Below the pieces are notes generated by a model. The model did no database searches. It saw only the letters and a program-made list of their open reading frames with translations, and was not told where the DNA came from. Of a stretch of DNA of 60,514 nucleotides, positions 3,387 through 19,922 are shown in pieces. Source of the stretch: a virus (lineage: Duplodnaviria; Caudoviricetes). Numbering within the stretch: the first letter of the stretch is position 1; each line of letters begins with the position of its first letter. A program made the translations under genes and the position numbers. Location: positions 1-60,514 of the IMG/VR virus record IMGVR_UViG_3300033487_000005; one strand, written 5' to 3'.

Positions 3387-4373
3387 ATGAGCAACACGTA
3401 CTCAATAGGTTGCCGTTCCGCGTTTCCGACAACACCGAGACTTTTCCCGTTTGCTAGGCAGGGTCTGCTGTTTGAAGCTCGGGAGACTGAGCTTCAGCAG
3501 CACGATCCGTGGCCCGAGATCGTCGGCGACGCGTTGTACATGTTCTATGCGTACTACGATGGAATAGGCATAGGCATTAGCTATGCAAGCTGCTCTCTCG
3601 CCGACTACATATCGGCTCCGACCAATCTGGTCCGCCACGGGTCATGGGTAGTTGCTCCAGACCCAGGCGGGCTTGGAGATGTATTTCACACCGCCCCCTG
3701 CTTGTTTCATCTCCCAGGCGGTGGATGGTTCATGTTTGCGCACGTGTACAAGGACGGTCGAGATCGCGGATTTTTGGACTATTGCAGTGAGAGCGAATTC
3801 CCGAACACGTGGCACAAATACGGAATCGTCCTGGACTCGCAGGGGGAAGAGTCGTGGATTCACAATCAGTCATTTGTCCCTCCATGGGAATCCCCGTCCG
3901 GCCTGTGGGAATGCGTGTACGCTACCTGCCCCGACGCCGGGGGTCCATGGGTGGCTAGGCGCGCGACATCACCAGACGGATATACCTGGACAAGGCATGG
4001 GATCGTCATGTCGCCCACCGGAGCGTCGGGAGACTTCGATCGGCTTGGTGTGCATCCACTCGGGAAGATCTACAAATTCGGTGACGTGTTCGTGGGCACG
4101 TACCAAGGATACGATGGTGTGACCTGGAGACCTGGAATGTACGCCACGCGAGACTTTGTGAGATTTTGGAGATCTCCGTATGGTTCCATTTGGCAGCCGT
4201 CTTCGAGCGTAGGAGCCTATGACCACGGAAGCATAGAATCTCCCACGCTGTTTGCTTTCCAAGACCAAATTCAGTTGCTCGCGAACACATCTCTGGTATT
4301 CGTAGGCGGAGAGACTCCTGGTACCGGAGGAGGGTATGACTACCAAATCGCTTGGGCAACGCTGACACCGTAG
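3387..4373 (+). CDS. Five-bladed beta-propeller glycoside hydrolase-like protein (GH43/32/130-like)
   Basis: HDPW start; repeated blades (RATSPDGYTWTRHGIVMSP, GDFD, YDHGSIESP). Confidence 0.7.
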   Translation: MSNTYSIGCRSAFPTTPRLFPFARQGLLFEARETELQQHDPWPEIVGDALYMFYAYYDGIGIGISYASCSLADYISAPTNLVRHGSWVVAPDPGGLGDVFHTAPCLFHLPGGGWFMFAHVYKDGRDRGFLDYCSESEFPNTWHKYGIVLDSQGEESWIHNQSFVPPWESPSGLWECVYATCPDAGGPWVARRATSPDGYTWTRHGIVMSPTGASGDFDRLGVHPLGKIYKFGDVFVGTYQGYDGVTWRPGMYATRDFVRFWRSPYGSIWQPSSSVGAYDHGSIESPTLFAFQDQIQLLANTSLVFVGGETPGTGGGYDYQIAWATLTP

Positions 4374-4386
4374 GAGACACCAATCA

Positions 4387-4641
4387 ATGATCGCAAAGAA
4401 GCTCAACCTGAACACGGTCTTGCTGGTTCTTGGCCTCGCCGCAGAATTCGGGCCAGACATTGCTGGCGCATCGACTGCGCTCGCGGGAACGGGTGTCGAG
4501 TGGCTCGTGCCAGTTTCGCGCGTACTCGGGGCGGTGGCGCTGATTCTCGGTAGCCTTGCCCGCGCACTCCCGAAAGCGCGCCCGATGCTCGCAGCGCTTA
4601 ACCTGGCGAGCCCACCCGCGCCTCCAAAGGACGCGACGTGA
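4387..4641 (+). CDS. Small membrane protein, candidate holin
   Basis: GGAG RBS; two hydrophobic segments; lysis-cassette position. Confidence 0.55.
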   Translation: MIAKKLNLNTVLLVLGLAAEFGPDIAGASTALAGTGVEWLVPVSRVLGAVALILGSLARALPKARPMLAALNLASPPAPPKDAT

Positions 4642-8309: not shown

Positions 8310-8536
8310 CCACCGTCCAGGCCCTCGCCGACCGCAGACTGATCTACCGAGTATGCGATAAGGCCGATGTCTCACCGACGACGGTCAAGATGGTACTCAT
8401 TGGAGTGCGCCCCAAGCGCGTGCGCGGGCCCCTGCTGCGCGTACTGGCCGCCCTGGCAGCCGAGGGCGTCGACACACCGGAGCGCCTCGCAGACGCAGCC
8501 GGCGCGCCTACGCCGACGAGCCTGCGCGCGGTGTGA
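8306..8536 (+). CDS. Small HTH (Cro-like) regulator
   Basis: RVCDKADVSPTTVKMVL HTH pattern. Confidence 0.55.
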   Translation: MTTVQALADRRLIYRVCDKADVSPTTVKMVLIGVRPKRVRGPLLRVLAALAAEGVDTPERLADAAGAPTPTSLRAV

Positions 8537-8687
8537 CCGGCCGCCCATCCTCGCCAGGCCGCAGCCCCCACAGGTTCACCTGGATCCCGCGAAAGTCGTA
8601 CGCCCAGCGGTTCCCCGGGCTGTCGGGCGGGAGCGGAGCGCGCGGGGACGGTGTCGGCGTTTTCGGATCGGTGAACAGGTCGGGCAT

Positions 8688-8915
8688 CTACAGCCACCTC
8701 GGCGGAACAGCGAGCGCCATTGGCAGGTAGTGGAAGCGCTCCACCGGGAGCGGTTTCTCGAACGGGTCGCGCGCATTGATCTTGAACGCGTGCCCAGGCT
8801 GGCAGGCGCCCCATTTGTCGACGTCGACTAGGCACAGGTAGTTTTCGCTGGCCGGATCCGTGACGGAGTCGAGCGCTGCGACGAGGTCGGACTGGTGGAC
8901 GAGCAGGGTGGCCAT
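8688..8915 (-). CDS. Hypothetical protein
   Basis: 75-aa ORF divergent from the ncRNA promoter. Confidence 0.5.
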   Translation of the reverse strand: MATLLVHQSDLVAALDSVTDPASENYLCLVDVDKWGACQPGHAFKINARDPFEKPLPVERFHYLPMALAVPPRWL

Positions 8916-8966
8916 GACGGAAAGGATAGCACGTCTGGGCCCAGACAGCCGAAGAGCCGGACACCC

Positions 8967-8995
8967 TTGCATTCGGGAGCCGGCTCCTCTAGACT
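8967..8995 (+). promoter_or_regulatory. Sigma70-type promoter with a palindrome in the spacer
   Basis: TTGCAT-17-TAGACT; GGAGCCGGCTCC at 8976-87. Confidence 0.65.
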
Positions 8996-9001
8996 TTGAG
9001 G

Positions 9002-9423
9002 TGGACTAGACCTTATGGGAACCGTAGCACTTTTCCAAAGTCGGTGCAAGCCGACCACTCCTGGCGCCACGGCAAGGCGCTGTTGGATCGCATCCGTGCG
9101 CGAGGTCTGCGCACAACGGCGGCAGCCGAAATCGTCGCTGACCCGGAGGTACGTGGCGTGGCAGGCATTGCGTCTGCACCGACACCATGCCGGGCTGAAT
9201 CGCATAACCGTAGGCCTGAATGGTGGCAACCAGGTGTTTCCAGGCACCGGAGAAGGAACGGTAGGGTCGCCGAAAAGCAACGGCCCGGGTGCGAGCGAAT
9301 ACGGAAGGCAAGAACGTCGACAGGCCAGATCCCACAGGTCTGTCGTGGTCCGAGCCAACCCGCGAAACGCGGACTGCAGAGCCTAGCTGCTAGCTGCAGG
9401 GAGTGGTCAGTCCCCTTATAGGG
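9002..9423 (+). ncRNA. Candidate large structured ncRNA, unclassified
   Basis: Nested long-range helices, GNRA-capped hairpin and a pseudoknot (see finding); no credible ORF. Confidence 0.65.
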
Positions 9424-9498
9424 TGGGTGGCCTCCGGGCCTGGAACGTCCGCCGCATGACGCTGCGCAACCTGCATGGCCTGCACTTTCGCGGTGGAC

Positions 9499-9567
9499 CT
9501 GCAGTTGCTCTGCAATTGCTCAGCAGTTGCTAGCAGGCTTGCCAATCTCACCTAGTCGTGCTAGTGT
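9499..9567 (+). promoter_or_regulatory. Three tandem 11-bp repeats followed by a promoter for the leaderless gene at 9577
   Basis: CTGCAGTTGCT/CTGCAATTGCT/CAGCAGTTGCT then TTGCCA-17-TAGTGT. Confidence 0.55.
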
Positions 9568-9576
9568 GCATTTTCG

Positions 9577-10248
9577 ATGCGACCCAGGATCCCCGAGACT
9601 GAGCTGGCCAAAGCCGTCGTGGCATACCTGCGAGAGTACCAGTGGGAGGTCTACCAGGAGGTCGTGGTGGGAGGGCCACGGGCCGACATCGTCGGGGTCA
9701 GAGGAAATCTGCTCTGGGTGGTCGAGGTCAAGGCGGCGCTGTCGCTGCGGTTGCTCGACCAGGCCGCGGGATGGATCGGGCGCTCCCACTACGTTTCGAT
9801 CGCCGTCCCATTCGACTCGCACCCGATGCACAGATCGTTCGCAGGGCGGTTCCTGAAGCAGCTTGGAATTGGGACTCTATACGTGCGAGGCGGTTCCCAT
9901 CCAGCGTACGACCCGCTCCATGCACGAGAAGATGAGAAGCCGGCGTTTCTCCGACGGGTAGATTCGTCTCACATCCTTCGCTCGCTCAACGAGGCCCAGA
10001 AGTCATCCGTTGCGGGGATCGCCGGCGGAGGCTACTGGACACCATTCCGCGGGACCTGTGGTGAGCTTCGTCGGTTCGTGCGCGAGCACCCGGGGTGCAA
10101 GGTCAAGCAGGCGATCGACTCGATTCATCACCACTACGCGACGCCGGCCAGCGCCGTCGGTTCGCTGTACAAGCTGATTTCTGACGGGAAGATTGAAGGT
10201 CTGGTAATCGACGGCGATGGCCGTCTCTCAACGAAAGAGGAATCATGA
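9577..10248 (+). CDS. MmcB-like PD-(D/E)xK nuclease with C-terminal winged-helix-like region
   Basis: QEV....RADIVG....WVVEVK..LS..LLDQA. Confidence 0.7.
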   Translation: MRPRIPETELAKAVVAYLREYQWEVYQEVVVGGPRADIVGVRGNLLWVVEVKAALSLRLLDQAAGWIGRSHYVSIAVPFDSHPMHRSFAGRFLKQLGIGTLYVRGGSHPAYDPLHAREDEKPAFLRRVDSSHILRSLNEAQKSSVAGIAGGGYWTPFRGTCGELRRFVREHPGCKVKQAIDSIHHHYATPASAVGSLYKLISDGKIEGLVIDGDGRLSTKEES

Positions 10249-10541
10249 GCAAACCAACGCCAACCGAGGCCGGCCGGGCCCTCGCCGCACTAGGGGCGAG
10301 CAAGGGCGGCAAGGCCGCAGCCAAGGCCATGGACGGCGACCAGCTTCGCGCCCGCGCCTCGGCCGGCGGCAAGGCGTCCGCTGCCCGCCTGACGCCCGAG
10401 GAACGCAGCCAGCGCGCGCTCAAGGCCGTACAGGCGCGGTGGGCTCGGTACCGTCGCGAGCACTGCTATGAGTGCTACATGGAGGACGTGTACCATCAGA
10501 CCAGGTCCGGCCACACCTGCAAGCGGGAGGTGAAGCCGTGA
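10245..10541 (+). CDS. KGG-repeat small basic protein
   Basis: SKGGKAAA...AGGKASAARLTPEERSQRALKAVQARW. Confidence 0.7.
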   Translation: MSKPTPTEAGRALAALGASKGGKAAAKAMDGDQLRARASAGGKASAARLTPEERSQRALKAVQARWARYRREHCYECYMEDVYHQTRSGHTCKREVKP

Positions 10542-10879
10542 GCAAGCAGCCGAAAGCCACGTCCGCGCAAGCGGAGTACGAATCTCTGCACGACGCCGTC
10601 ACCGGATACATTTCGTGGGATGGGACCGTCGATGCCTACTCTGCTTGTCCGTTCGGCTCGAAATCGAGCTGCGCCCTTGGATCGTGCGCGGATTCGGCGA
10701 TCGCGTTCACGGGGAAAGGTTCATTCAGCGATTGCCCAAGATTCGGCGGGGCGGCTCCTGGAGCCGTGCGAGCCAGCGTCCTGTGCAGGGGAAAACGATG
10801 GTTTGAATCGAAGGGAGAGCCGGAGCCCAAAGAAGTCGGATCGAAATGGACGAAGACCAACGCCGCGAGGAAACCGTGA
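10538..10879 (+). CDS. Hypothetical Cys-containing protein
   Basis: GGAGG RBS; GTGA overlap. Confidence 0.5.
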   Translation: MSKQPKATSAQAEYESLHDAVTGYISWDGTVDAYSACPFGSKSSCALGSCADSAIAFTGKGSFSDCPRFGGAAPGAVRASVLCRGKRWFESKGEPEPKEVGSKWTKTNAARKP

Positions 10880-10922
10880 GCACCATCTACCTCGCCGCGC
10901 GGTTCACGTTCCAGGAGTCGGC

Positions 10923-11630
10923 GTGAATGAGCTGGCACTTTTCTCAGGCGCTGGAGGCGGAATTCTCGGCGGCACCCTGCTCGGATGGAGAACCGTCTGC
11001 GCCGTGGAGATCAATGCCTTCTGCGCCAGACGACTCATGCAGCGCCAAAATGAAGGCCACTTGCCACCGTTCCCCATTTGGGATGATGTTTGTACCTTCG
11101 ACGGACGCCCATGGGCAGGAGCTGTTGACGTCATTTCTGGCGGCTTCCCGTGCCAGGACATCAGCGCAGCCGGGAAGGGCGCAGGAATCGACGGGGAACG
11201 CTCGGGACTGTGGAAGGAGTTCGCTCGCATCATTGGCGAGGTACGACCCGCGCACGTACTCGTGGAAAACTCGCCAATGCTCACTGGGCGCGGGCTTGGA
11301 CGAGTTCTCGGAGACTTGGCCGCGTTGGGGTTTGATGCGAGATGGGGAGTGCTGGGGGCTTGTTGTGTCGGAGCACCTCACCGACGAGAAAGAATCTGGG
11401 TTGTGGCTTCCAACCATCCAGTCGCGAGATTGGAAGGGATGCTCCAACAGATCGAGAAAAGGCTACGAGAAGGATCTCCCAATGGCGATAGGGTGCAAGG
11501 CTGGTTCTCATCTGAGCCCAAATTGGATCGAATGGTTCATCGGCTGGCCAATAGGATGGACAGGGTGCGAGCCATTGGAAACGGCCAAGTTCCGGCAGTG
11601 GTACGACTTGCATGGGAGACGCTGAAATGA
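10923..11630 (+). CDS. DNA cytosine-5 methyltransferase (alpha chain: motifs I-VIII and X)
   Basis: LFSGAGG, GGFPCQD, VENS, RERIW, AIGNG. Confidence 0.9.
   Translation: MNELALFSGAGGGILGGTLLGWRTVCAVEINAFCARRLMQRQNEGHLPPFPIWDDVCTFDGRPWAGAVDVISGGFPCQDISAAGKGAGIDGERSGLWKEFARIIGEVRPAHVLVENSPMLTGRGLGRVLGDLAALGFDARWGVLGACCVGAPHRRERIWVVASNHPVARLEGMLQQIEKRLREGSPNGDRVQGWFSSEPKLDRMVHRLANRMDRVRAIGNGQVPAVVRLAWETLK
10927..11625 (+). CDS. Overlapping +1-frame ORF, putative MTase beta chain (TRD and motif IX)
   Basis: WLPT...RDWKG and LSPNWIEWFIGWPIGWT resemble motif IX, which is missing from the alpha frame. Confidence 0.7.
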   Translation: MSWHFSQALEAEFSAAPCSDGEPSAPWRSMPSAPDDSCSAKMKATCHRSPFGMMFVPSTDAHGQELLTSFLAASRARTSAQPGRAQESTGNARDCGRSSLASLARYDPRTYSWKTRQCSLGAGLDEFSETWPRWGLMRDGECWGLVVSEHLTDEKESGLWLPTIQSRDWKGCSNRSRKGYEKDLPMAIGCKAGSHLSPNWIEWFIGWPIGWTGCEPLETAKFRQWYDLHGRR

Positions 11631-11682
11631 GCACCCTCTACCTCGCCGCCCGGTTCGAGCGCCAACGCATGGATGATGTCGG

Positions 11683-12576
11683 ATGTCACCGATTGTAGTT
11701 CAGCTTGAGATCCAAGGATTGATCCTTGTCCTGTCCATCAGCGGAGGGAAGGATTCGACGGCAGTTGCCCTGGCGCTGCGAGAAGCCGGCATCCCATTCC
11801 GCATGGTTTTCGCGGATACCGGATGGGAGGCTCCCGAGACATACGAGCACCTGGACTATCTGCGCGCCAAGCTCGGCCCCATCGACGTCGTCGACGTCCC
11901 GGGAGGCATGGTCGAGAAGATCCGAAAGCGCGCCGGCTTCCCGGCCAGGATGCAGCGATGGTGCACGCGCGAATTGAAGCTAGAGCCATTGCGCAAGTAC
12001 CATGATGCCATCGAGGCGTCCGAAGGGGAAACCGTCTGCGTGGTCGGCGTGAGAGCTGGCGAGTCTGCCGCGCGCGCAAAGATGGCGGTGCTTGAGGACG
12101 AACCCGTAGGAGATCGTTCGTGGGGAGGTTGGGTATGGCGCCCGATCTTGTCCTGGACCGTTGAGGACGTGATCCGAATCCACAACCGGCATGGCGTCCG
12201 GATGAATCCGCTCTATCACCGTGGGCACGATCGCGTCGGGTGCTATCCGTGCATCTTCGCGCGCAAGGAAGAAATCCGTCTCATCGCCAAGAACTGCCCA
12301 GAACGCATCGACGAAATCAGGGCACTAGAAGCAGAATGCATGGAAGAACGTAAACGGCGAAACGCTGCCGATCCTGGCAGGTACCAATACCCGATCGCCA
12401 CGTTTTTCCAAGGACGTGGAGAACCAGGACGCAATGGAGCAATGGCGATCGACAATGTCGTCATGTGGTCGCGCACGGTTCGAGGAGGGAAACAGCTACC
12501 ATTGCTTGCGCCAGTTCCCGAGGGTGGCTGCATGCGCTGGGGCCTATGCGAGACGCACGGAGAGGACGAACAATGA
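11683..12576 (+). CDS. PAPS reductase-family (PP-loop) protein
   Basis: SISGGKDS, FADTGWE, RWCTRELK, GVRAGES..R, RVGCYPC. Confidence 0.9.
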   Translation: MSPIVVQLEIQGLILVLSISGGKDSTAVALALREAGIPFRMVFADTGWEAPETYEHLDYLRAKLGPIDVVDVPGGMVEKIRKRAGFPARMQRWCTRELKLEPLRKYHDAIEASEGETVCVVGVRAGESAARAKMAVLEDEPVGDRSWGGWVWRPILSWTVEDVIRIHNRHGVRMNPLYHRGHDRVGCYPCIFARKEEIRLIAKNCPERIDEIRALEAECMEERKRRNAADPGRYQYPIATFFQGRGEPGRNGAMAIDNVVMWSRTVRGGKQLPLLAPVPEGGCMRWGLCETHGEDEQ

Positions 12577-12938
12577 GCACGCTGTATCTTGCGAGCAGGT
12601 TCGAGCGCCAGGCCGAGCTGCTCGTGTACCGGGACAGGCTCGAGCGCTCCGGGCACGTCGTGACGTCGCGGTGGCTGGACGCCCCCGGGCCCGCGGTGCC
12701 GGACGATGCGGCGCTGATGGCCGAATGCGATCTGGCAGACATCGCGAAAGCGGACTGGTTCGTCCTGTTCTCCGACGACCAACTAGGCCGCGGGGGAAAG
12801 GACTTCGAGATGGGGTGGGCTGCACACCACGGGCTGCGCCTGCGCATCGTTGGGCCGAGGGTGCACGTGTTCCACTTCCTGCCGGCGATCGTCCAGTACG
12901 AGACGGTCGACGAGTTCTTGGAGACGATGGGGGCTTGA
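12573..12938 (+). CDS. Nucleoside 2-deoxyribosyltransferase / nucleotide N-glycosidase-like protein
   Basis: YLAS start, DLADIAKAD, GGKDFEMGWA (catalytic Glu). Confidence 0.75.
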   Translation: MSTLYLASRFERQAELLVYRDRLERSGHVVTSRWLDAPGPAVPDDAALMAECDLADIAKADWFVLFSDDQLGRGGKDFEMGWAAHHGLRLRIVGPRVHVFHFLPAIVQYETVDEFLETMGA

Positions 12939-12972
12939 CTTTCGCATCGCCATGCCGCCTAATAATCCGAGC

Positions 12973-13215
12973 ATGAAAAAATCGAAACGAGACAATCCGA
13001 GTCCTGATTCACGGAAGCCAGGACGTCCCGCCAAGCCGGCTGGCAGCACGCGCGACGTGCGGGCTATCTGCTACCTGCTGACCACGGAGCGCCCGATCGT
13101 CGAGAGAGCCGCTCACGTGCGAGGATTGAGCGTGAGCGACACGCTCCGGGCAGGTCTGCGCAGCCTCGGGGTCGATCTGACCGATCAGGCATACCGTATT
13201 CCGGCGCGTGATTGA
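12973..13215 (+). CDS. Ribbon-helix-helix-type regulator with GRP motif
   Basis: KPGRPAKP, beta strand, ERAAHVRGLSVSDTLR; TTGACT upstream, leaderless. Confidence 0.65.
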   Translation: MKKSKRDNPSPDSRKPGRPAKPAGSTRDVRAICYLLTTERPIVERAAHVRGLSVSDTLRAGLRSLGVDLTDQAYRIPARD

Positions 13216-13278
13216 CGCAGCGTCAGCGACGGCACGTGACGCATCGTGAGCAAATCGACATAGCCCCGTTGAATTTTC

Positions 13279-13322
13279 TGGACACGGATAATCCCGGTGC
13301 TAGTATGTATCTCAGGAGGACA
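13279..13322 (+). promoter_or_regulatory. Early promoter plus RBS, copy 1
   Basis: TGGACA-16-TAGTAT with TG extension, then AGGAGG; 28 bp identical to copy 2. Confidence 0.75.
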
Positions 13323-13327
13323 CGACG

Positions 13328-13507
13328 ATGACGACGACGACCACTACGTACCTGTACGATCTGGACACTCGACACAAGGTGACAGCCCGCGACCTGCAAA
13401 TTTCCCAAGAGGCATACGACGCCACGATGGCGTACCGCCGCGAGATGGGCTGCGAGTACAAGATCGTCATCGGAGGCCGTCGTCTCGGCCTCGGAAGGGC
13501 AGAGTAG
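13328..13507 (+). CDS. Small early protein (not in the ORF track)
   Basis: AGGAGG RBS; MTTTTTTYLYDLDTRHKV..., 59 aa. Confidence 0.7.
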   Translation: MTTTTTTYLYDLDTRHKVTARDLQISQEAYDATMAYRREMGCEYKIVIGGRRLGLGRAE

Positions 13508-13508
13508 C

Positions 13509-13802
13509 ATGGCGACCAATCTCTACAGCATCGTGCAGCCAGTGACCAGCGTGGAGATGGGGCCCATCGAGGCATCGAGCCCGGGCGAGGCGCTCGATGC
13601 GCTGGCCCGGATGGCCGGATACCGCGACCACGCTCACGCCTGCGAGGTGACAGATGATGATGACGACCTGATAGTGACTGAGATAGAGGCGTACCACGAC
13701 GAGTGCGACCTGTACATGGACGCCGACGACGAGGCGCAGAATTTCGAGCCGTGGAATAATTGCCTGCCGGCGACCGACGGCGAGTGGCGGACGCGCGAGT
13801 AG
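13509..13802 (+). CDS. Acidic early protein
   Basis: 97 aa; GPIEASSPGEALDALARMAGY. Confidence 0.7.
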   Translation: MATNLYSIVQPVTSVEMGPIEASSPGEALDALARMAGYRDHAHACEVTDDDDDLIVTEIEAYHDECDLYMDADDEAQNFEPWNNCLPATDGEWRTRE

Positions 13803-13810
13803 CCCGCCCA

Positions 13811-13857
13811 CCCGCGCCTCGTGCGCGGTCTGCCCCCGAGCAGTCGGAGGTGGACCG
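13811..13857 (+). repeat. 47-nt double-hairpin element, copy A
   Basis: CCGCGC-CTCGT-GCGCGG plus CGGTCTGCC...GGTGGACCG. Confidence 0.75.
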
Positions 13858-13882
13858 GGACCGAGACTCAGGAGGACGACAC

Positions 13883-14149
13883 ATGACGACGACGCAGACA
13901 ATCCGACAATCGATGATCCGAGACGAGTACGACCACCTGCACGGCGAGTGCGATACGGTATGCGAGGTCGGACGCGGCCACGTCGGCACCGGTCGACTGC
14001 ACATCGCGCTTCCGATCAGCGCGCTCATGCACCTGGCATCGCAGGTGCCGGGACTCGACGTCGATGTCGACACCGGTCTGGCGTGGTGCCAGCCGTCGCA
14101 AGTCGCGCGAGTGCGTGACGTCGCGGCGGCTCTCGCAGGAGCGAGGTAG
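13883..14149 (+). CDS. Small early protein
   Basis: AGGAGG RBS; MTTTQTIRQ. Confidence 0.7.
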   Translation: MTTTQTIRQSMIRDEYDHLHGECDTVCEVGRGHVGTGRLHIALPISALMHLASQVPGLDVDVDTGLAWCQPSQVARVRDVAAALAGAR

Positions 14150-14151
14150 CC

Positions 14152-14355
14152 ATGACGACTACGCAGACAATCAGGACGGTGCACGCGCTGGGGACGGACT
14201 TCGCGTGCGGCGCGCGCACAGCGCAGATTCGCCGCTCCCTCGCGCGGCCGGGCTCTTGGGTGGTGACCGGGAGCGACGGCCGGACGCAAATCCGCGACGA
14301 CTACTTCGACGCGCGCACCGAGGCGGTGGCGCGCGTGACCAAGGGGGTGGCGTGA
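14152..14355 (+). CDS. Small early protein
   Basis: GAGG RBS; MTTTQTIRT. Confidence 0.65.
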   Translation: MTTTQTIRTVHALGTDFACGARTAQIRRSLARPGSWVVTGSDGRTQIRDDYFDARTEAVARVTKGVA

Positions 14356-14573
14356 TGATCCTCGAATCATCCTGCTACCACGTCCACGCGACTCCCGCTT
14401 GCCCGGAGTCGCGTGCTAACGTGAGCGTCAGCGCCGGCAATCCCACCGTGCGGGGGCAGGCGTTTGCGTCGGTCTCGCTGCACATGACGGCCGCCGACGC
14501 CCGCGCGCTGGCCTACGACCTGCTGAGCGCCGCCGACCACGCCGACGGGCTCGCGCCGGCAGAGGTCGACTGA
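14355..14573 (+). CDS. Small early protein
   Basis: TGATG coupling. Confidence 0.6.
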   Translation: MILESSCYHVHATPACPESRANVSVSAGNPTVRGQAFASVSLHMTAADARALAYDLLSAADHADGLAPAEVD

Positions 14574-14839
14574 TGCGCTGGGAGCGGTGCTGGCAGTGCG
14601 ACGGGCGCGGCTCCACCGGGCCGTACACCGATGCGGGGGAGCCGCGATTCGTCGGCGCGTGCACCGAGTGCCGCGGCAAGGGACGCCTGCGCACAGACGG
14701 TCACGAGCGGCTCGAGTGCAGGGCGCAGAAGCTCGCCGTGCGCCGCGCGTGCTGGCGGAAGGCCGCCTCGTCACTGGCCAGGCGGTGTCGCGAGGACACG
14801 CCGGGTAATGTATCTTGCATTTTCTCGCATCCCATGTGA
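14573..14839 (+). CDS. DnaJ-type CxxCxGxG Zn-finger protein
   Basis: CWQCDGRG and CTECRGKG. Confidence 0.6.
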   Translation: MRWERCWQCDGRGSTGPYTDAGEPRFVGACTECRGKGRLRTDGHERLECRAQKLAVRRACWRKAASSLARRCREDTPGNVSCIFSHPM

Positions 14840-14849
14840 TTGTGTCGTC

Positions 14850-15044
14850 ATGAACAAAAAGCCAGGGAGACCAAAGAAGGACCGAGGAGACTCTCAGACG
14901 AAATGCGTATCGGTGTGGTTGCTTGAAGACGAGAAGGAATCGATTCAGAGAGCAGCAAACAGCGCTCGTCTACCGGTGAGCACATGGGCCGGGAAGGTAC
15001 TGACTGACGCAGCCAGAAGGGCACTGTCAGCGTTGGGAGTGTAG
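14850..15044 (+). CDS. Ribbon-helix-helix-type regulator with GRP motif
   Basis: KKPGRPKK...VSVWLLEDEKESIQRAA...VSTWA. Confidence 0.7.
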   Translation: MNKKPGRPKKDRGDSQTKCVSVWLLEDEKESIQRAANSARLPVSTWAGKVLTDAARRALSALGV

Positions 15045-15046
15045 CC

Positions 15047-15487
15047 ATGGTCTACATATACTCACTCAAAGATCCAAGAGATGGTGTGGTCAAATACATC
15101 GGGCAGACTCGCCACATCGGTACGCGGTTGTCAAGTCACATCTCTGCAGCATATGGGAATCCCAGGAAGGGAAGAAGTGCCAAGGACGATTGGCTTAGGG
15201 GACTTGAAGCTTCTGGATCTATGGCGATCGTAGAAGTCCTTGAAGAATGCGACGATGACAACGCCGGTACTTCTGAGAAGAAGTGGATTGCATTTTATCG
15301 AGAGAACGGGGAATTGTTCAATATTCAGGGTGGCTCTGAGTCTCACGCAAACCTCAGGGAAGGATGGGTATCTACTCATGTCCCGATGACAAAAGATGAA
15401 CGGCAGGCCTGCAACGAAAAGGCAAGACTCACCGGTCTTAGCTACGCCGTTTGGGCCAGGATGAGACTGGTTGACGCGTCAAGATAG
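15047..15487 (+). CDS. GIY-YIG endonuclease with C-terminal RHH-like domain
   Basis: YIYSL.DPR....YIGQT...R...H...E.KWI; tail VPMTKDERQAC...GLSYAVWAR. Confidence 0.85.
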   Translation: MVYIYSLKDPRDGVVKYIGQTRHIGTRLSSHISAAYGNPRKGRSAKDDWLRGLEASGSMAIVEVLEECDDDNAGTSEKKWIAFYRENGELFNIQGGSESHANLREGWVSTHVPMTKDERQACNEKARLTGLSYAVWARMRLVDASR

Positions 15488-15516
15488 CGTTGTTTAGTGG
15501 GTTATGTCGATTTTTC

Positions 15517-15560
15517 TTGCATCGGGAATACACGGTGCTAGTATGTATCTCAGGAGGACA
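15517..15560 (+). promoter_or_regulatory. Early promoter plus RBS, copy 2
   Basis: TTGCAT-16-TAGTAT; CGGTGCTAGTATGTATCTCAGGAGGACA. Confidence 0.75.
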
Positions 15561-15565
15561 TGAAC

Positions 15566-15781
15566 ATGACGAAGACGAAGGCGACGACACTTATTTGTGA
15601 GGATTGCGGCAAGGGAGAGCGAGCCGGCGAGCTCTGGAGCACGACCAATGCGCAGTCCGCCCAGGGACTCGGCTGGTGCCCAGGCTGTGCGAGCCTGCGC
15701 GTGGCCGAGACCACCTTCCAGCCGACCGCGCGACTCCGCGCTGCCCAGAAGGCTCGCCGGGCTCGCGCAGGATACCGCTAG
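15566..15781 (+). CDS. Small Zn-finger early protein
   Basis: CEDC...CPGC; AGGAGG RBS. Confidence 0.7.
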   Translation: MTKTKATTLICEDCGKGERAGELWSTTNAQSAQGLGWCPGCASLRVAETTFQPTARLRAAQKARRARAGYR

Positions 15782-15784
15782 CCG

Positions 15785-15831
15785 CCCGCGCTTCGGCGCG
15801 GTCTGCGACTCTCCCAGAGCGCCGCAGACCG
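15785..15831 (+). repeat. 47-nt double-hairpin element, copy B
   Basis: CCGCGC-TTCG-GCGCGG plus CGGTCTGCG...CGCAGACCG. Confidence 0.75.
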
Positions 15832-15854
15832 GACCGAAGAAGGAGGACACGACG

Positions 15855-16049
15855 ATGACGAAGACGACGATCGAGATTGGCCAGAAGGTCTATCTGCGTT
15901 GCAGCCCATGCCACGGGCAGATACATTGGGCTGGCACCGTCGAGAAAATCGACGAGCTTGGCATCCTGGTGCACTGGACTGATACGCCGATGGGACATGC
16001 CGAGCAGCGCCACTACTCACGGGAGGTCCTCACGGAGAAGCCTGTCTAG
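15855..16049 (+). CDS. Small SH3/KOW-like early protein
   Basis: IEIGQKVYL...GTVEKID...ILVHW. Confidence 0.65.
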   Translation: MTKTTIEIGQKVYLRCSPCHGQIHWAGTVEKIDELGILVHWTDTPMGHAEQRHYSREVLTEKPV

Positions 16050-16053
16050 CCAG

Positions 16054-16100
16054 CCCGCGCCTCGTGCGCGGCAGCCTCACGACCGATCGCGGGGCTGCCG
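16054..16100 (+). repeat. 47-nt double-hairpin element, copy C
   Basis: CCGCGC-CTCGT-GCGCGG plus CGGCAGCC...GGCTGCCG. Confidence 0.75.
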
Positions 16101-16114
16101 GACAGGAGGACACG

Positions 16115-16228
16115 ATGACGAAGATGACGACATTCCGCCCGACGAAAGCAGACATGGCAGCCCACCGGCGGGTGATGGCCGAGCTGGCGTCCGAGCGCAA
16201 GAAGATCGCCGCGAAGGGAGGCAAGTAG
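16115..16228 (+). CDS. 37-aa early peptide (not in the ORF track)
   Basis: AGGAGG RBS; MTKMTTFRPTKADM... Confidence 0.65.
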   Translation: MTKMTTFRPTKADMAAHRRVMAELASERKKIAAKGGK

Positions 16229-16229
16229 C

Positions 16230-16403
16230 ATGAGCCACAGCCACCGAGAGCAGACGTACCGCGACCTGCACGACAGCGACCTGCGACCATTCGATATGCC
16301 GACACAGGCCGAGCGCGATCGGCAGGCAGACAACGAGCGACTGATCGATCTATTCCGCCTGGCGTTCGAGGCCGATCGTCAGCTGACGGAAAGGGGAGAG
16401 TGA
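16230..16403 (+). CDS. 57-aa early protein (not in the ORF track)
   Basis: GGAGG RBS; fills the gap between neighbours. Confidence 0.55.
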   Translation: MSHSHREQTYRDLHDSDLRPFDMPTQAERDRQADNERLIDLFRLAFEADRQLTERGE

Positions 16404-16804
16404 CAATGCGTCGATGCAATTACGATGCGTGCCAGATTCGGCACGAGGATGACCAGGCCGATCGCGACCGGCTTGCGACCGAGAACATCAGCGAGCTCGC
16501 GGACCTCGACGACGGCGCGATCGTCGATCGCCAGATGGACAACGACGTCACCGACCGCGTGCAGATCGCGAGCATGGACGCGCGCCTCGCCGAGCTGGTA
16601 GACGCGCACGACGCCACCGCTCCGCTGTTTCCAGAGTTCGGGCCGCGGACCGAGGCGCAGGTATACTCGCTCGACGACTACCGCGCCGGTCTCGACGTCA
16701 CGAGGACCGACTGGCCGGCTATGCCAGACCGTGAGCCGAGCTGGGGGCAGGTGCTGCGGATGGCCGCAGAGGACGTGGGCAAGGCGATCAAGGAGGTGCT
16801 CTAG
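16400..16804 (+). CDS. Hypothetical acidic protein
   Basis: Coupled ORF. Confidence 0.6.
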   Translation: MTMRRCNYDACQIRHEDDQADRDRLATENISELADLDDGAIVDRQMDNDVTDRVQIASMDARLAELVDAHDATAPLFPEFGPRTEAQVYSLDDYRAGLDVTRTDWPAMPDREPSWGQVLRMAAEDVGKAIKEVL

Positions 16805-17286
16805 TGCTCGATGACAAGATCGGCGGACCTGCAAACGATCGCGCGCGCAAATTGGCCGACGAGATCAACGACAAGGCGACGGCCGCCGGGTGCACGTCAT
16901 CCTCATGCCGCGTGCACGGAGAAGCCCACATGACGGGAACCATGTGGCGCCTACGCTACACTGGCCACATCGAGCTGCGGTTCGAGGCTCTCACCGTGGC
17001 CGGACCTAGGCGCCGAAGCGTCAACGACTGCAAGCGCCCGATCGACGCCGACAAGATCGTCAAGCTGCTCGTCGAGCTCCAGGGGTATTACGATCGCCAG
17101 GATGCGGAGCGAGCGCAGTGCAACGCCGCAGATGCGGCCTGGAAATCAGCCGCCGACAAGCTACGCGTCGACGCGCCGAAGCGGCTGGAAATCACATCGA
17201 GCGCGTCCGGTATCCACCTGCACGCGGACTCCCTGACTGCAGCTCAGGCCCGCGCAATCGTCGACGCGCTCAAGGTGCTGCCGTGA
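16804..17286 (+). CDS. Hypothetical protein
   Basis: GGAGG RBS; coupled. Confidence 0.65.
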   Translation: MLDDKIGGPANDRARKLADEINDKATAAGCTSSSCRVHGEAHMTGTMWRLRYTGHIELRFEALTVAGPRRRSVNDCKRPIDADKIVKLLVELQGYYDRQDAERAQCNAADAAWKSAADKLRVDAPKRLEITSSASGIHLHADSLTAAQARAIVDALKVLP

Positions 17287-18802
17287 CGTCATCCGCCGCA
17301 TACCTCGGCCCCTACATCGTCGTCGCTGCCGGCGGACTCTACTCGGTGGTCGACCGCATGACACGAACGCCGACGCTGTTTGCTGATGGTAACCCGGCGA
17401 TCTTCGCCAGCGCATTCGACGCGATGTTGTGGGTCATCCTGAGAATCGCTTGGAGGTAGGCCAGTGACATCTATCTATATGCCTCTCACTGACGATGCGC
17501 TGGAGAAATGGTTCGACACGTTGACGAGGGTTCAGTTGTTCATGCTTGCATCTGGGGATGCTGTTGGATTCTGCCAGAGCATGCGCGGCACTACCGGAGA
17601 TATCTCGCTGTCACTCAGAATCTACGAACAGCTGCGTGAGGTGCTATTGTGACCTTCCTCATCAGCCGCAATCATCGTTTCAAAATCCGCCGCGACGACG
17701 AGGACTCGCTCTGGCACATCGAGGACCGTCAGACTGGCAAGGTCGTGGCCGAGAACGGCGTCCCGCTCGGATTCGTCGAATCGGCCGAGGCAGAGGACTG
17801 GATTGCAGCGCACGACGTCCCCGGCTGGGGCTCGAGAAAGGCAACGACATGAAGCTCAAATACGTGGTCGCAGAATCGCTCGAAGACGCGTGGGTGCGTC
17901 CCCGGCTGGGGCTCGAGAAAGGCAACGACATGAAGCTCAAATACGTGGTCGCAGAATCGCTCGAAGACGCGTGGGTGCAGCTGCAAGAGGGAACAGAGGT
18001 AGAGTCAGCCAGCAAGGCAGACGAGCTGCTCGCAGACGTCGAGGATGGCACAGGGAAGCCGCATCACATCTACCGTGTCACTGTGGAGCAGGCAACATGA
18101 TCATCCGCGCAAGGCTCAGGCGCGGCGAAGCGTCCACCGTCGACATCAAGGTGCAGACGTTCGGGAGCTTCGTTCCCGGCAAGCGCTCGTTCCAACTGGC
18201 GCTCGAACTGCTCGGATGGACCCAGTGGGAACTGGTCGGGTACGAGGAGGACAAGCCATACACCGAGATCGACTTGGACGGAGACGACAACGGAAAGGAC
18301 GGTAACTCATGAATCTGTACTATAGGCTGTGGGAAGCAACGAGTATCAGAGGCTGGTCAGTGTTCGGCGTTCTCGTGGTGCTGTCAATCATCGCAGTGAT
18401 GTGTGGCGGCGTCTGCGCGATAGCGTGGTCGATCGGACCGTGGGCGATGTCGGTTTCCGGGCCAGTATCCGCACTGGTCGCTTGGAGAATCTGGAAGGCT
18501 GCACTGTGACGAAAGAACGACTGGCCGACGCGCTGCTGATGGCGGCGATGGATTGGCAGAATGGCCACGGTACATGTGGACTCGCCTGGACAGAAGGGAA
18601 AGAGACGTGGCTGTCACTTACCGACTTTCCAACCGATTTCTTAGTTGCCGACCTGGCTACCAGCGCGGCCATCTCCGAAGTCGCCGGCATGGGCTTCGAC
18701 CTGCAGAACGACGACGGGAGCGACTGCGAGAAGGTGGCGGTAGTCGACTGGCCACGGAGCGACGACGAGAACCGGTACATCATGCGACCGGTGCGGAAGT
18801 GA
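17283..18802 (+). other. Run of small coupled hypothetical genes (~17283-17459, 17464-17652, 17649-17852, 17849-18100, 18097-18312, 18309-18509 TM, 18506-18802)
   Basis: ATGA/GTGA-overlapping ORFs tiling the + strand. Confidence 0.6.
17816..17977 (+). repeat. Perfect 81-bp tandem duplication containing RBS and start codon
   Basis: 17816-17896 equals 17897-17977. Confidence 0.95.
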
Positions 18803-18860
18803 CCCGCCTCGACCTGCTCGCGTGCGTGCTCGGCCTGGCGCTCTTGCTGGCGGTGTCGCT

Positions 18861-19922
18861 GTGAGGTGCTCATCGCTCCCGCGGCTCATGCTCTGCCACG
18901 GTTCAGGCCGCACCGACGACGGCGTGCTCATCGACACGTACAACGACGCAGCCGACGACGGGACAGATGCCCACCGACTGATGGCTAGCTGGCCAGACGG
19001 CGACGCTCCGAAGTACCTCACCGACGAGCTGAGCGCCGACGCGCGCATCGGGTACTTCACCGCGGCCAAGATGTGGCGCGAGAACATCAGCGCATGGATG
19101 CCAGACAGCGAGGCCGAGGTGGAGCTTGCGTCCGATGGTCTCACCGGGCACATCGACCGACTAGCCGTCATCGCCGTCAAGCGCGCCGCTGTGGTGCATG
19201 ACTGGAAGTTTGGGCGCAAGGACGTGAGCCACAAGCACCAAGGCTTCGGCTACGCTTTCTTGGTCCTACGCAAGTATCCCGATGTGGACACAGTGACCGT
19301 TCACTTCGGATGGCCGCGCACCCAGGAGCTGGAGAGCTACACCGTCACCCGTGAGCGAGCCGAGCAGTGGGACCGCGAGCGACGGGAGCGCATTGAGAAG
19401 TGGGACGGCAAGTTCTGCACCGGGGACCACTGCGCCCATTGCCCGCGCCTTTCCACGTGCCCGGCCCAACGGCAGCTGGTCAAGCGCGACGTCGAGGTGT
19501 TGACCACCGTCGGGATTCCAGACGTCACCGCGATGGAGCCAGCCCAGCTCGTGGACTTCCACCGCCGGCTCGCGGTGCTGTCTGCAGTGCTCGACTCGGC
19601 AAAGAAGAGCACGCGCATGGAGGTCGAAAGGCGCGGCGACGTGTTGAGCGGAGACGGCCACGTGCTACACTTGGTCGAGGAGAACGGGCCACGCAAGGTC
19701 GACACGTTGAAGGCTTGGCCCGTACTGAACAGGGAGTTGGACGCCGACGAGCTGGCCCCATGCATCTCTGTGAGCATCGGCGACGCAGAGGAAGCCGTAG
19801 CCAAGAAAGCCGGCAAGGGCAACGGCTCCAAGGCCAAGCGCGCGCTGGCCGCCGAACTCGAAGCGGTCGGCGCAATCACTCAAGGGAAAGTCTCGAAGCT
19901 CAAATTGGAAAGGATCAAGTGA
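18861..19922 (+). CDS. Cas4-like/DUF2800-type PD-(D/E)xK exonuclease
   Basis: SSLPRLMLC, GTDAH, GHIDRL, HDWKFG, Q..GY, C-terminal HCAHCPRLSTC. Confidence 0.8.
   Translation: MRCSSLPRLMLCHGSGRTDDGVLIDTYNDAADDGTDAHRLMASWPDGDAPKYLTDELSADARIGYFTAAKMWRENISAWMPDSEAEVELASDGLTGHIDRLAVIAVKRAAVVHDWKFGRKDVSHKHQGFGYAFLVLRKYPDVDTVTVHFGWPRTQELESYTVTRERAEQWDRERRERIEKWDGKFCTGDHCAHCPRLSTCPAQRQLVKRDVEVLTTVGIPDVTAMEPAQLVDFHRRLAVLSAVLDSAKKSTRMEVERRGDVLSGDGHVLHLVEENGPRKVDTLKAWPVLNRELDADELAPCISVSIGDAEEAVAKKAGKGNGSKAKRALAAELEAVGAITQGKVSKLKLERIK

What the first reader, a model, noticed from the sequence alone, without database searches (positions are those of the whole stretch)
8967..9423. Candidate novel ~420-nt pseudoknotted ncRNA with its own promoter
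Seen: directly after TTGCAT-17-TAGACT the sequence folds as nested helices. GGAC/AGACCT/TGGGA (9003-20) pairs with TCCCA/AGGTCT/GTCC (9330-51). Inside are CCGTA:TACGG (9022/9300) and GCAC:GTGC (9027/9289). TCCAA:TTGGA encloses GTCGGT-GCAA-GCCGAC and GCGCC..GGCGC. Further arms are GTGCGC..GCGCAC, CCCGG..CCGGG, ACCGT..ACGGT holding GCCTG..CAGGC, and GGGTCG..CGGCCC. The unpaired linker CACTCCT (9056-62) is complementary to GGGAGTG (9399-9405) outside the closing stem, which makes a pseudoknot. A 3' domain has CCGCG-AAA-CGCGG and GGACTG:CAGTCC. I see no tmRNA, RNase P, SRP or intron hallmarks. Inference: a large phage RNA, analogous to GOLLD/ROOL, possibly a new class. It lies next to a PD-(D/E)xK nuclease gene; a partnership is speculative.
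Basis: partly seen in the sequence, partly recalled or inferred. Interest (0 to 1): 0.85.

Follow-up and report, generated by a model that had tools for sequence, protein, structure and literature searches.

The report
New structured RNA gene in phages
A roughly 460-base, apparently gene-free stretch of a wetland phage encodes a conserved, intricately folded RNA that matches no catalogued RNA family and whose job is still unknown.

Summary

Homologues settle the matter. The element recurs in two distant phage contigs (L035, L036) at 74-75% nucleotide identity, while flanking genes are alike only as protein (36-58%). A diverged core copy lies in a closer relative (G001). Fifteen database "proteins" are spurious ORF calls on further copies.

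It is not coding. Substitutions fall evenly on codon positions (34/30/36), and 1-2-nt indels shift the frame between copies.

It is structured. There are 18 compensatory pairs against 6.7±2.0 in shuffles, the consensus-energy z is -5.6, and the G-U excess favours the + strand. A 95-nt three-way junction (9200-9294) has 14 of 30 covarying pairs across four phages.

A promoter (TTGACx-17-TAGACT) is kept in L035, L036 and L027, and more weakly in the window and G001. Rfam 15 gives no match.

P1b, P3, P10, P13, the proposed pseudoknot and the nuclease partnership do not.

Function and transcript ends are untested. The scan had not noted this family on other DNA.

The parts
8951..8989 (-). Hairpin (arms 8951-8960 / 8980-8989) whose loop holds the -35 box of the RNA's promoter. 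On the minus strand it reads as a terminator-like hairpin.
   Evidence: the repeat finder I6. RNAfold of both strands in 5 phages (window, G001, L035, L036, L027) shows a hairpin at the same place with different stem sequences. On the minus strand a T4-T5 run follows it in G001, L035 and L036; the window and L027 have GGCTGTCTGGG. The terminator scan called none of these, because their loops exceed its 8-nt limit.
8967..8995 (+). Promoter of the RNA: TTGCAT, 17 nt, TAGACT. The transcription start is inferred near 9002.
   Evidence: Sequence. The same position holds TTGACG-17-TAGACT in L035 (called by the tool, 9 of 12, the only site in 800 nt), TTGACT-17-CACACT in L036, TTGACT-16-CAAACT in G001 and TTGACA-18-TAGACT in L027. 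Not called in the window by the tool. No transcript data.
9002..9465 (+). The structured non-coding RNA. Its ends are inferred, not measured.
   Evidence: blastn to L035 and L036 at 74-75% over 8988-9319. The alignment extends to the 3' block at 9421-9462. L035/L036 similarity runs from the -10 box to just past TGACGC (459 nt, 87.6%). There is no coding signal in any frame.
9016..9026 (+). 5' strands of two long-range pairings: UGGGA (9016-9020) with UCCCA 9330-9334, and CCGUA (9022-9026) with UACGG 9300-9304.
   Evidence: P1c has 4 conserved pairs, one column reading AU/GC/GU. P2 is 93% paired with no covariation.: 91% of 35 and 87% of 30 cells. A local hairpin 9013-9018/9022-9027 is an unresolved alternative.
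9040..9055 (+). Hairpin P5 with a GCAA tetraloop.
   Evidence: 2 compensatory pairs among 3 DNA sequences. 97% of 31 cells canonical. Not formed in G001, by my reading.
9063..9081 (+). Hairpin P6 (9063-9068 / 9076-9081).
   Evidence: 94% paired in the 3 DNA rows, with a variable loop. In the first mapping of the back-translated rows, column 9064:9080 read GC in 5 rows and CG in 6.
9083..9091 (+). 5' strand of a 9-bp long-range helix with 9345-9353 that encloses the body of the RNA.
Evidence: RNAalifold: 100% paired in the 3 DNA rows, but invariant apart from one GU/AU column. 87% of 53 cells.
9096..9114 (+). Hairpin P7 (GUGCGC / GCGCAC).
   Evidence: Pair probability 0.98. The stem is invariant and the first loop base varies G/A/C. 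82% of 50 cells. RNAalifold prefers a mutually exclusive longer helix, 9094-9108 with 9163-9176. This is unresolved.
9200..9294 (+). Core three-way junction. Closing helix 9200-9205/9289-9294; arm 9207-9211/9258-9262 plus 9214-9217/9254-9257, carrying hairpin 9228-9236/9245-9252; hairpin 9264-9270/9280-9286.
   Evidence: Model R1 finds it in window, L035, L036 and G001 (38.5 bits, E 2.8e-6). On the 4-row alignment, 95% of cells are paired and 14 of 30 pairs change on both sides, against 5.7±1.6 in shuffles (0 of 500) and 1-2 in slid controls. Column-shuffle z is -8.3.
9319..9344 (+). Hairpin 9319-9326/9337-9344, whose loop carries UCCCA (9330-9334).
   Evidence: 6 of 8 pairs change on both sides among 3 DNA rows. 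The back-translated rows give weaker support: 48% of 33 cells.
9360..9372 (+). Hairpin P12 (CCGCG-AAA-CGCGG).
   Evidence: Pair probability 0.965. Kept with changed sequence in L035 and L036. 87% of 30 cells.
9376..9420 (+). Variable insert.
   Evidence: Not alignable to L035 and L036. A contig of run X5 is identical over 9267-9415 except for a 7-nt deletion at 9383.
9421..9462 (+). Conserved 3' block (GGGTGGGTGGCCTCCGGGCC ... ATGACGC), the likely 3' end region of the RNA.
   Evidence: Conserved in L035, L036 and G001. RNAalifold on the longer alignment pairs the following bases with the 5' end, with one GU/UA/UG column. This is tentative.

Best explanation
Window ~9002-9465 (+) is a gene for a ~460-nt, highly structured non-coding RNA of a family not in Rfam 15.

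Shown:
- The sequence is conserved at the nucleotide level far beyond its neighbours.
- It is not protein-coding.
- Its helices covary, and the + strand is the folding strand.
- A sigma-70-like promoter keeps its place in front of it.
- The best-kept part is a 95-nt three-way junction (9200-9294). Peripheral domains vary between phages.

Inferred:
- It is transcribed rightward from TTGCAT-17-TAGACT.
- Promoter, enclosing hairpin and RNA travel together as a self-contained unit, while the genes on either side differ between phages. I therefore think it most likely works in trans as an RNA that binds, holds or titrates a protein of the phage or host during infection. I put this at about 45%.
- The alternative, at about 35%, is that it is only the leader of the genes downstream.

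Its biochemical function is unknown.
For: Non-coding:
- No codon periodicity or codon-usage signal in any of six frames over 8960-9560. Flanking genes score +0.13 to +0.28.
- Substitutions by codon position of ORF 9015..9386: 34/30/36 (window-L035), 35/33/38 (window-L036), 11-14 per position (L035-L036).
- Indels of 1, 1, 2, 11, 1 and 1 nt.
- ORF translations from other contigs match the window in frame 2 and then frame 3. tblastx hits fall in all six frames.
- No Pfam or PHROG hit for 4 ORFs of the region.

Conserved:
- The only blastn similarity between the window and L035/L036 is the element (74-75% over 327-345 nt). Neighbouring genes are 36-58% identical as protein.
- L035 and L036 are 87.6% alike over 459 nt in the element, against 72-74% in the alignable flanks.
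- A run X5 contig is identical over 9267-9415, apart from a 7-nt deletion, while its contigs over flanking genes carry 14-17 differences in 90-149 nt.
- 15 database ORF calls are homologous.

Structured:
- RNAalifold gives 117 pairs, 18 with double changes.
- The pair count gives 18 against 6.7±2.0 in shuffles (0 of 500), and 0-2 in slid controls.
- In the 15 back-translated rows, which were not used to derive the fold, 77.3% of 436 cells are canonical, against 25-40% in slid controls.
- Column-shuffle z is -5.63 for the whole element and -8.32 for the core.
- The G001 core copy carries many compensatory changes.

Strand:
- G-U against A-C cells: 49 to 7 (DNA rows) and 71 to 18 (back-translated rows).
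- The minus strand gives z -3.19 and -6.46.

Promoter.

Autonomy:
- Downstream genes differ: a nuclease-like gene (window), a lipoprotein (L035, L036) and an unrelated ORF (G001).
- The window's nuclease gene has its own promoter-like site, TTGCCA-17-TAGTGT.
Against: - Only four DNA copies were obtainable. Two of them are 87.6% alike, and G001 shares only the promoter block, the core and the 3' block.
- The consensus fold was derived from the same three sequences it was scored on. The four-row core alignment was fitted to the model.
- The back-translation test is home-made. For double changes alone it did not beat its slid controls (10 against 3-9).
- Homologues were ascertained through open reading frames, so 'the ORF is open' carries no weight either way.
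- The single-sequence z-score is unremarkable.
- Several conserved helices are mutually exclusive: P7 against 9094-9108/9163-9176, P4 against 9083-9091/9345-9353, and the local 5' hairpin against P1c/P2.
- No + strand terminator follows the element. It may therefore simply be the 5' part of an operon transcript.
- There is no expression evidence of any kind.
Confidence: 0.8

Rival explanations
1. It is a cis-acting leader (long 5' UTR) of the operon that follows. Its fold governs read-through, stability or translation of the downstream genes, possibly by switching between alternative helices.
For: - No + strand terminator-like site follows the element in the window or L035.
- It sits directly behind a promoter at the head of the rightward genes.
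- Several conserved helices exclude one another.
- A conserved GGAGG (9145-9149) can pair with CCUCC at 9432-9436 (repeat finder I2).
Against: - The downstream gene differs in each lineage.
- In the window the next gene has its own promoter-like site and operator-like repeats.
- A 460-nt, multi-domain leader is much larger than the usual leader elements (recalled).
Confidence: 0.35
2. ORF 9015..9386 (or 8996..9421) encodes a real small protein, and the conservation is protein-level.
For: - The frame from the conserved ATG is open in the window, L035 and L036.
- phmmer finds 6 similar predicted proteins, and a profile search finds 15.
Against: - No third-position excess: 34/30/36, 35/33/38 and 11-14 per position.
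- Frame-shifting indels occur while the nucleotides stay about 90% identical. Homologous ORFs switch frame relative to the window.
- Codon-usage scores are negative in all frames.
- No Pfam, PHROG or phage tblastn hit.
- G001 keeps the base pairs but not the residues.
Confidence: 0.02
3. The conservation reflects DNA-level signals rather than an RNA: overlapping promoters, operators, a terminator, an origin or a recombination site.
For: - The first ~60 nt are also conserved in G001, where hairpin P5 does not form.
- On the minus strand the same bases read TTGC(A/G)C, 17 nt, TGnTACGKT in the window, G001, L035 and L036.
- GTGCTANNNT is enriched in the early region: 8 found against 2.7 expected.
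- A terminator-like hairpin overlaps the promoter.
Against: Promoter or operator signals cannot explain compensatory changes in at least 8 helices spread over 350 nt, the G-U against A-C asymmetry, or the covarying core in G001. No iterons or AT-rich tract lie inside 9003-9420.
Confidence: 0.08
4. The folds are chance pairings in GC-rich spacer DNA with no function.
For: Single-sequence z is -1.75 on the + strand and -0.91 on the - strand.
Against: Nucleotide conservation exceeds that of flanking genes in three independent comparisons. Covariation and consensus-energy z-scores are significant.
Confidence: 0.02

Closest known systems
GOLLD and ROOL RNAs (large 'ornate' RNAs often carried by phages or prophages). 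Their properties are recalled. I saw only the search listing and the start of the abstract of PMC12286853.
   Same: A large, multi-helix, covarying non-coding RNA of unknown function, carried by phages and found mainly in environmental sequence.
   Different: No covariance-model match to either, nor to any Rfam family. At ~460 nt it is shorter than the 580-800 nt I recall for those. No tRNA genes lie beside it: 0 tRNA in the window. Multimer formation is untested.
Phage 'morons': self-contained promoter-gene-terminator units inserted between phage genes (recalled concept).
   Same: The unit keeps its own promoter and an adjoining hairpin, while the genes on both sides differ between phages.
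   Different: The cargo is an RNA, not a protein. No 3' terminator was found. Expression from a prophage is unknown, and I did not look for an integrase.
Promoter-proximal phage leader RNAs: lambda nut (boxA/boxB) and HK022 put (recalled).
   Same: A structured RNA directly downstream of an early-type promoter. P5 has a GNRA-type loop.
   Different: Those are 15-70 nt and act on RNA polymerase in cis. This is ~460 nt with a three-way-junction core. No boxA-like sequence was looked for, and no downstream terminators were identified.
Spurious ORF calls over structured RNAs in GC-rich genomes (a general annotation artefact, recalled).
   Same: 15 'hypothetical proteins' (P0016-P0030) are translations of this RNA.
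   Different: Here the artefact was the route to the homologues, not the explanation of the element.

Membership tests
Any Rfam 15 family (4227 models, including GOLLD, ROOL, OLE, HEARO, raiA, RNase P, tmRNA, SRP, 6S, group I and II introns, riboswitches) | Covariance-model score at or above the family's gathering threshold | tested here: not met
   0 matches at gathering score in the whole window. At E up to 10 over 8700-9700, the only hit is isrA at 14.6 bits against 51 needed, outside the element. Nothing at the element in L035 or L036. In G001 there are only sub-threshold chance hits.
GOLLD / ROOL | Usual neighbourhood of tRNA genes; length of roughly 580-800 nt (both recalled) | tested here: not met
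   ARAGORN finds 0 tRNA or tmRNA genes in the 60.5-kb window. The element is about 460 nt.
tmRNA | tRNA-like domain plus tag reading frame | tested here: not met
   ARAGORN: none. Rfam: none.
Protein-coding gene | Excess of substitutions at third codon positions | tested here: not met
   34/30/36, 35/33/38 and 14/11/11 substitutions at codon positions 1/2/3 in three pairwise comparisons.
Protein-coding gene | Reading frame kept between homologues | tested here: not met
   1- and 2-nt indels inside the ORF. Translations of homologous ORFs match the window in two frames. tblastx hits fall in six frames.
Protein-coding gene | Codon usage of the genome, and a match to a protein family | tested here: not met
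   Scores are -0.10 to -0.27 in the frames of the four long ORFs, against +0.14 to +0.43 for 12 training genes. 0 Pfam and 0 PHROG families for 4 ORFs.
Riboswitch or gene-specific cis-regulatory leader | The same or a functionally related gene downstream in most members | tested here: not met
   4 loci with DNA have 3 different downstream genes. Only 4 loci could be examined.
Terminator-bounded small RNA gene | Intrinsic terminator at the 3' end on the RNA's strand | tested here: not met
   No + strand terminator-like site in window 8500-10000 or L035 1050-1850. The scan covers only loops of 3-8 nt followed by T-rich tails.
   The nuclease was found in 0 of 5 records G001-G005 and 0 of 2 records G007-G008. 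The RNA core was found in 0 of 8 nuclease loci L002-L009 and 0 of 3 whole records G009-G011. The first-look filter of that tool also missed the G001 copy.

The most novel reading that the evidence does not exclude
This is the founding member of a new class of large, autonomous phage RNAs. It is a promoter-plus-RNA cassette that moves between unrelated phages of wetland and freshwater bacteria. Its conserved three-way-junction core and pseudoknotted periphery would carry out a trans function during infection, such as sequestering a host defence or gene-expression factor, or assembling into a higher-order RNA particle as ROOL and GOLLD do.
Probability: 0.3. Interest if true: 0.85.

Novelty: categorically new. 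Interest (0 to 1): 0.68.

Why it matters
Large (>400 nt) bacterial or phage RNAs with complex conserved folds are few, and each class studied so far has proved biochemically unusual.

This one is new at the level of RNA family. There is no Rfam 15 match, no match in 50,697 GenBank phage records, and two text searches did not surface it. Whether its mechanism is new is not shown.

It comes with a ready handle for experiments: a compact conserved core, a defined promoter, and natural variants (G001) that keep only the core.

It also shows a practical point. At least 15 'hypothetical proteins' in public databases are mistranslations of this RNA, and such spurious ORFs can be mined both to find RNA homologues and to test their base pairs.

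The text searches match words, not sequence. Motif lists in the supplements of RNA-discovery papers were not opened and could hold this family.

Tried and rejected
Routes to homologues that gave little:
- The nuclease gene: 15 proteins at 37-53% identity and 8 viral loci, with no DNA similarity to the element.
- The single nuclease protein in viral contigs: none.
- blastn and tblastn against GenBank phages: none.
- An exact 20-mer from P12 in viral contigs: none.
- A two-block pattern and the peptide profile in genome contigs: none.
- A word-index search with the single ORF: only P0016.

A misleading pattern. AACCGTAGCAC-N15-GCAAGCC brought L023-L025, and L029-L032 and L034. Their flanks are unrelated and their number is about what I estimate for chance, so I dropped them. 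L033 is identical to G001.

A corrected error. I first aligned the window element to G001 L021 1500-1960 and concluded that only 61 nt were conserved. Model R1 later placed the G001 core at 1884-1984. MAFFT could not align the G001 interior, nhmmer missed it, and so did genome search with R1.

Sequencing runs. No RNA holder was listed. Run X3, labelled metatranscriptomic but probably DNA, held only a contig over 8673-8846. This says nothing on expression. Most of runs X2 and X4 gave only short pieces under 90% alike.

Ideas considered and rejected:
- A CsrB-like GGA sponge. My own count is about 11 GGA against about 8 expected.
- A group II intron domain V on the minus strand. There is no 5' partner strand.
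- A conserved mini-ORF after GGAGG. The frame and stop are not kept.

First back-translation mapping. The mapping through tblastn HSPs mis-registered rows across 1-nt indels. I replaced it with a direct degenerate-sequence alignment.

Literature. Two searches. I saw only listings and the starts of abstracts and read no paper. Supplements were not requested.
Full report
**Setting.** The window is a 60,514-bp IMG/VR virus record, 98% complete by CheckV and about 63% GC. It carries terminase, portal, tail-sheath and primase-helicase genes. The finding lies in a gap between two leftward genes (8508..8687 and 8688..8972, probably starting at ATG 8915) and a rightward gene at 9577..10248. That rightward gene matches only phrog_12193, of unknown function. 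GC by codon position and a codon-usage log-odds trained on 12 confident genes show clear coding signal in the flanking genes. They show none, in any of six frames, between about 8960 and 9560.

**Checking the observation.** P12 and P13 overlap by two bases. On the window alone the fold is not remarkable:
- The MFE z-score is -1.75, with 6 of 100 shuffles folding as well. The minus strand gives -0.91.
- Its long-range helices have pair probabilities of 0.000-0.004. Only the local hairpins P5, P6, P7, P11 and P12 are favoured, at 0.41-0.98.
- Rfam 15 gives nothing. ARAGORN gives nothing.

**Finding relatives.** The neighbouring nuclease gene led only to distant loci with no similarity to the element. 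The primase-helicase and terminase genes found closer phages. One of them, G001 (79% primase identity), keeps the leftward gene and a 61-nt block at the start of the element. This was the only local alignment above a shuffle null: score 38 against a maximum of 31.

The turn came from treating ORF 9015..9386 as a protein. phmmer against 1.84 billion representatives found 6 similar predicted proteins, and a profile search found 15. Using their alignment as a query brought two viral contigs with real DNA, L035 and L036.

**Not a protein.**
- In the nucleotide alignment of window, L035 and L036, substitutions fall evenly on the three codon positions: 34/30/36, 35/33/38 and 14/11/11.
- The copies differ by indels of 1, 1, 2, 11, 1 and 1 nt. 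Over stretches such as 9073-9133 the reading frames differ while the DNA stays about 90% identical.
- Translations of homologous ORFs match the window in frame 2 and then frame 3. tblastx gives hits in all six frames.

The 15 'proteins' are therefore spurious ORF calls on copies of a non-coding element. The homologues were ascertained through open frames, so I give no weight to the frame being open.

**More conserved than its surroundings.**
- Between the window and L035/L036 the element is the only region that blastn can align (74-75% over 327-345 nt). The roughly syntenic lysis-module genes are 36-58% identical as protein.
- L035 and L036 are 87.6% identical over 459 nt of the element, and 72-74% in the alignable parts of their flanks.
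- In another study's run (X5), one 151-nt contig is identical to 9267-9415 apart from a 7-nt deletion in a tandem repeat. Its contigs over the flanking genes carry 14-17 differences in 90-149 nt.

**Structured, on the + strand.**
- RNAalifold on the three DNA copies predicts 117 pairs, 18 with changes on both sides.
- The pair-count tool gives 93.4% paired and 18 double-change pairs, against 6.7±2.0 in 500 shuffles (none as high) and 0-2 when partners are slid by 1-3 columns. Shuffling alignment columns gives z = -5.63.
- That fold was derived from the same three sequences, so I sought an independent test. I back-translated the 15 spurious ORFs, keeping only bases fixed by the amino acid, and aligned them to the DNA alignment. 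I then scored the same pairs. 77.3% of 436 determined cells are canonical, against 25-40% in slid controls. Double changes alone (10 against 3-9) did not stand out.
- G-U cells outnumber A-C cells 49 to 7 in the DNA rows and 71 to 18 in the back-translated rows. The minus strand gives a weaker z of -3.19. The RNA is therefore read from the + strand.

**The core.** A covariance model of 9196-9298 (R1) finds a full-length, much-diverged copy in G001: L021 1884-1984, 38.5 bits, E 2.8e-6 in 235.5 kb. On the four-row alignment:
- 95% of cells pair.
- 14 of 30 pairs change on both sides, against 5.7±1.6 in shuffles (0 of 500) and 1-2 in slid controls.
- The column-shuffle z is -8.32.

This alignment was fitted to the model, which favours the structure. 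A model of 9081-9357 (R2) matches G001 only over this core. G001 also shares the promoter block and the 3' block. The family therefore has a constant three-way junction and variable periphery.

- Supported: P5, P6, P7, P8, P9, P11, P12, P1c, P2 and P4, at 81-100% canonical.
- Not supported: P1b (42%), P3, P1a and P10.
- P13 and the proposed pseudoknot fall in the variable insert 9376-9420.
- New helices are 9200-9205/9289-9294, 9228-9236/9245-9252, 9319-9326/9337-9344 (6 of 8 pairs covary) and 9083-9091/9345-9353.
- P1c pairs the 5' UGGGA with the loop of the 9319-9344 hairpin, which is a pseudoknot candidate with one AU/GC/GU column.
- Several conserved helices exclude each other, and I could not resolve them.

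**Promoter and ends.** TTGACx-17-TAGACT keeps its place, ending 18-19 nt before the conserved AUGG, in the window, L035, L036 and G001. L027 has the same promoter, but an ORF starts 8 nt after it. The scan tool calls it in L035 only, not in the window or G001. L035/L036 similarity begins at the -10 box and ends just after the conserved TGACGC. This puts the window RNA at about 9002-9465. No + strand terminator follows. There is no expression evidence.

**Function.**
- The nuclease partnership fails. The nuclease is absent from G001-G005 and G007-G008. The RNA core is absent from 8 nuclease loci and 3 nuclease-bearing records.
- Upstream and downstream genes differ among the four loci, while promoter, enclosing hairpin and RNA stay together.
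- I therefore favour an autonomous, trans-acting RNA (about 45%) over a cis leader (about 35%). Neither is shown.

**Novelty.** There is no Rfam 15 match for any copy and no GenBank phage match. Two literature searches returned nothing that describes it; I saw listings and abstract starts only. I rate it a new RNA family. What is known of GOLLD, ROOL, put and nut in this report is recalled, not tested.

Noticed in passing
window 9021-9052 (-), with 8941-8989 (-): On the minus strand the start of the RNA gene reads TTGCAC, 17 nt, TGC-TACGGT, which is a -35 box plus an extended -10. The same arrangement is kept in G001, L035 and L036. About 25-35 nt further left lies the hairpin that encloses the RNA's -35 box, followed on the minus strand by T4-T5 in G001, L035 and L036. 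This could make a ~75-nt antisense RNA overlapping the big RNA's promoter and first bases. Alternatively the bases are conserved only for P2 and P5 of the big RNA.
   Followed up: partly
window 8923-19671: GTGCTANNNT occurs 8 times against 2.7±1.5 expected (1 of 100 shuffles reach 8). All copies lie in the early region and all point with the local genes: 8923(-), 9021(-), 9558, 13297, 14413, 15535, 17641 and 19662 (+). It is probably the phage's early promoter -10 motif.
   Followed up: partly
window 9501-9567: Three 9-nt repeats, GCAGTTGCT / GCAATTGCT / GCAGTTGCT, are spaced 11 bp apart. They lie just upstream of TTGCCA-17-TAGTGT, and only 9 nt separate that box from the ATG of the 9577 gene. 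This is an operator-like array on a nearly leaderless gene.
   Followed up: no
window 8913-8953: The leftward gene probably starts at ATG 8915, 7 nt after TATCCT (8928->8923), so it is leaderless or nearly so. G001 has the same TATCCTTTCCG(T)CATG. Upstream are a perfect 14-bp palindrome, GTCTGGGCCCAGAC (8933-8946), and a 16-nt block (8938-8953) identical in L027.
   Followed up: no
L027 (reverse complement ~3656-4480): A third relative has the same promoter (TTGACA-18-TAGACT). Instead of the RNA, it has a long ORF starting 8 nt after the -10 box, with a GIY-YIG-like motif (YIYGI..IRYVGKT, my reading, not tested against Pfam). The site behind this promoter seems to accept different cargo.
   Followed up: no
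L021 (G001) 1432-2590: G001 has about 1.1 kb without coding signal. It holds the promoter block, ~320 nt of unrelated sequence, the core junction (1884-1984) and the 3' block (~2080-2130). This is a longer variant of the RNA whose extra parts are unexplained.
   Followed up: partly
window 9383-9396: A 7-nt tandem duplication, CTAGCTG CTAGCTG, lies inside the variable insert. A contig of another study's run lacks one copy.
   Followed up: no
L035 1795-2268 and L036 3491-3964: In both distant phages the RNA is followed by a gene for a 157-aa protein with a lipoprotein-type signal (…LGC…). It is preceded by endolysin-like and small membrane-protein genes, all on the same strand.
   Followed up: no
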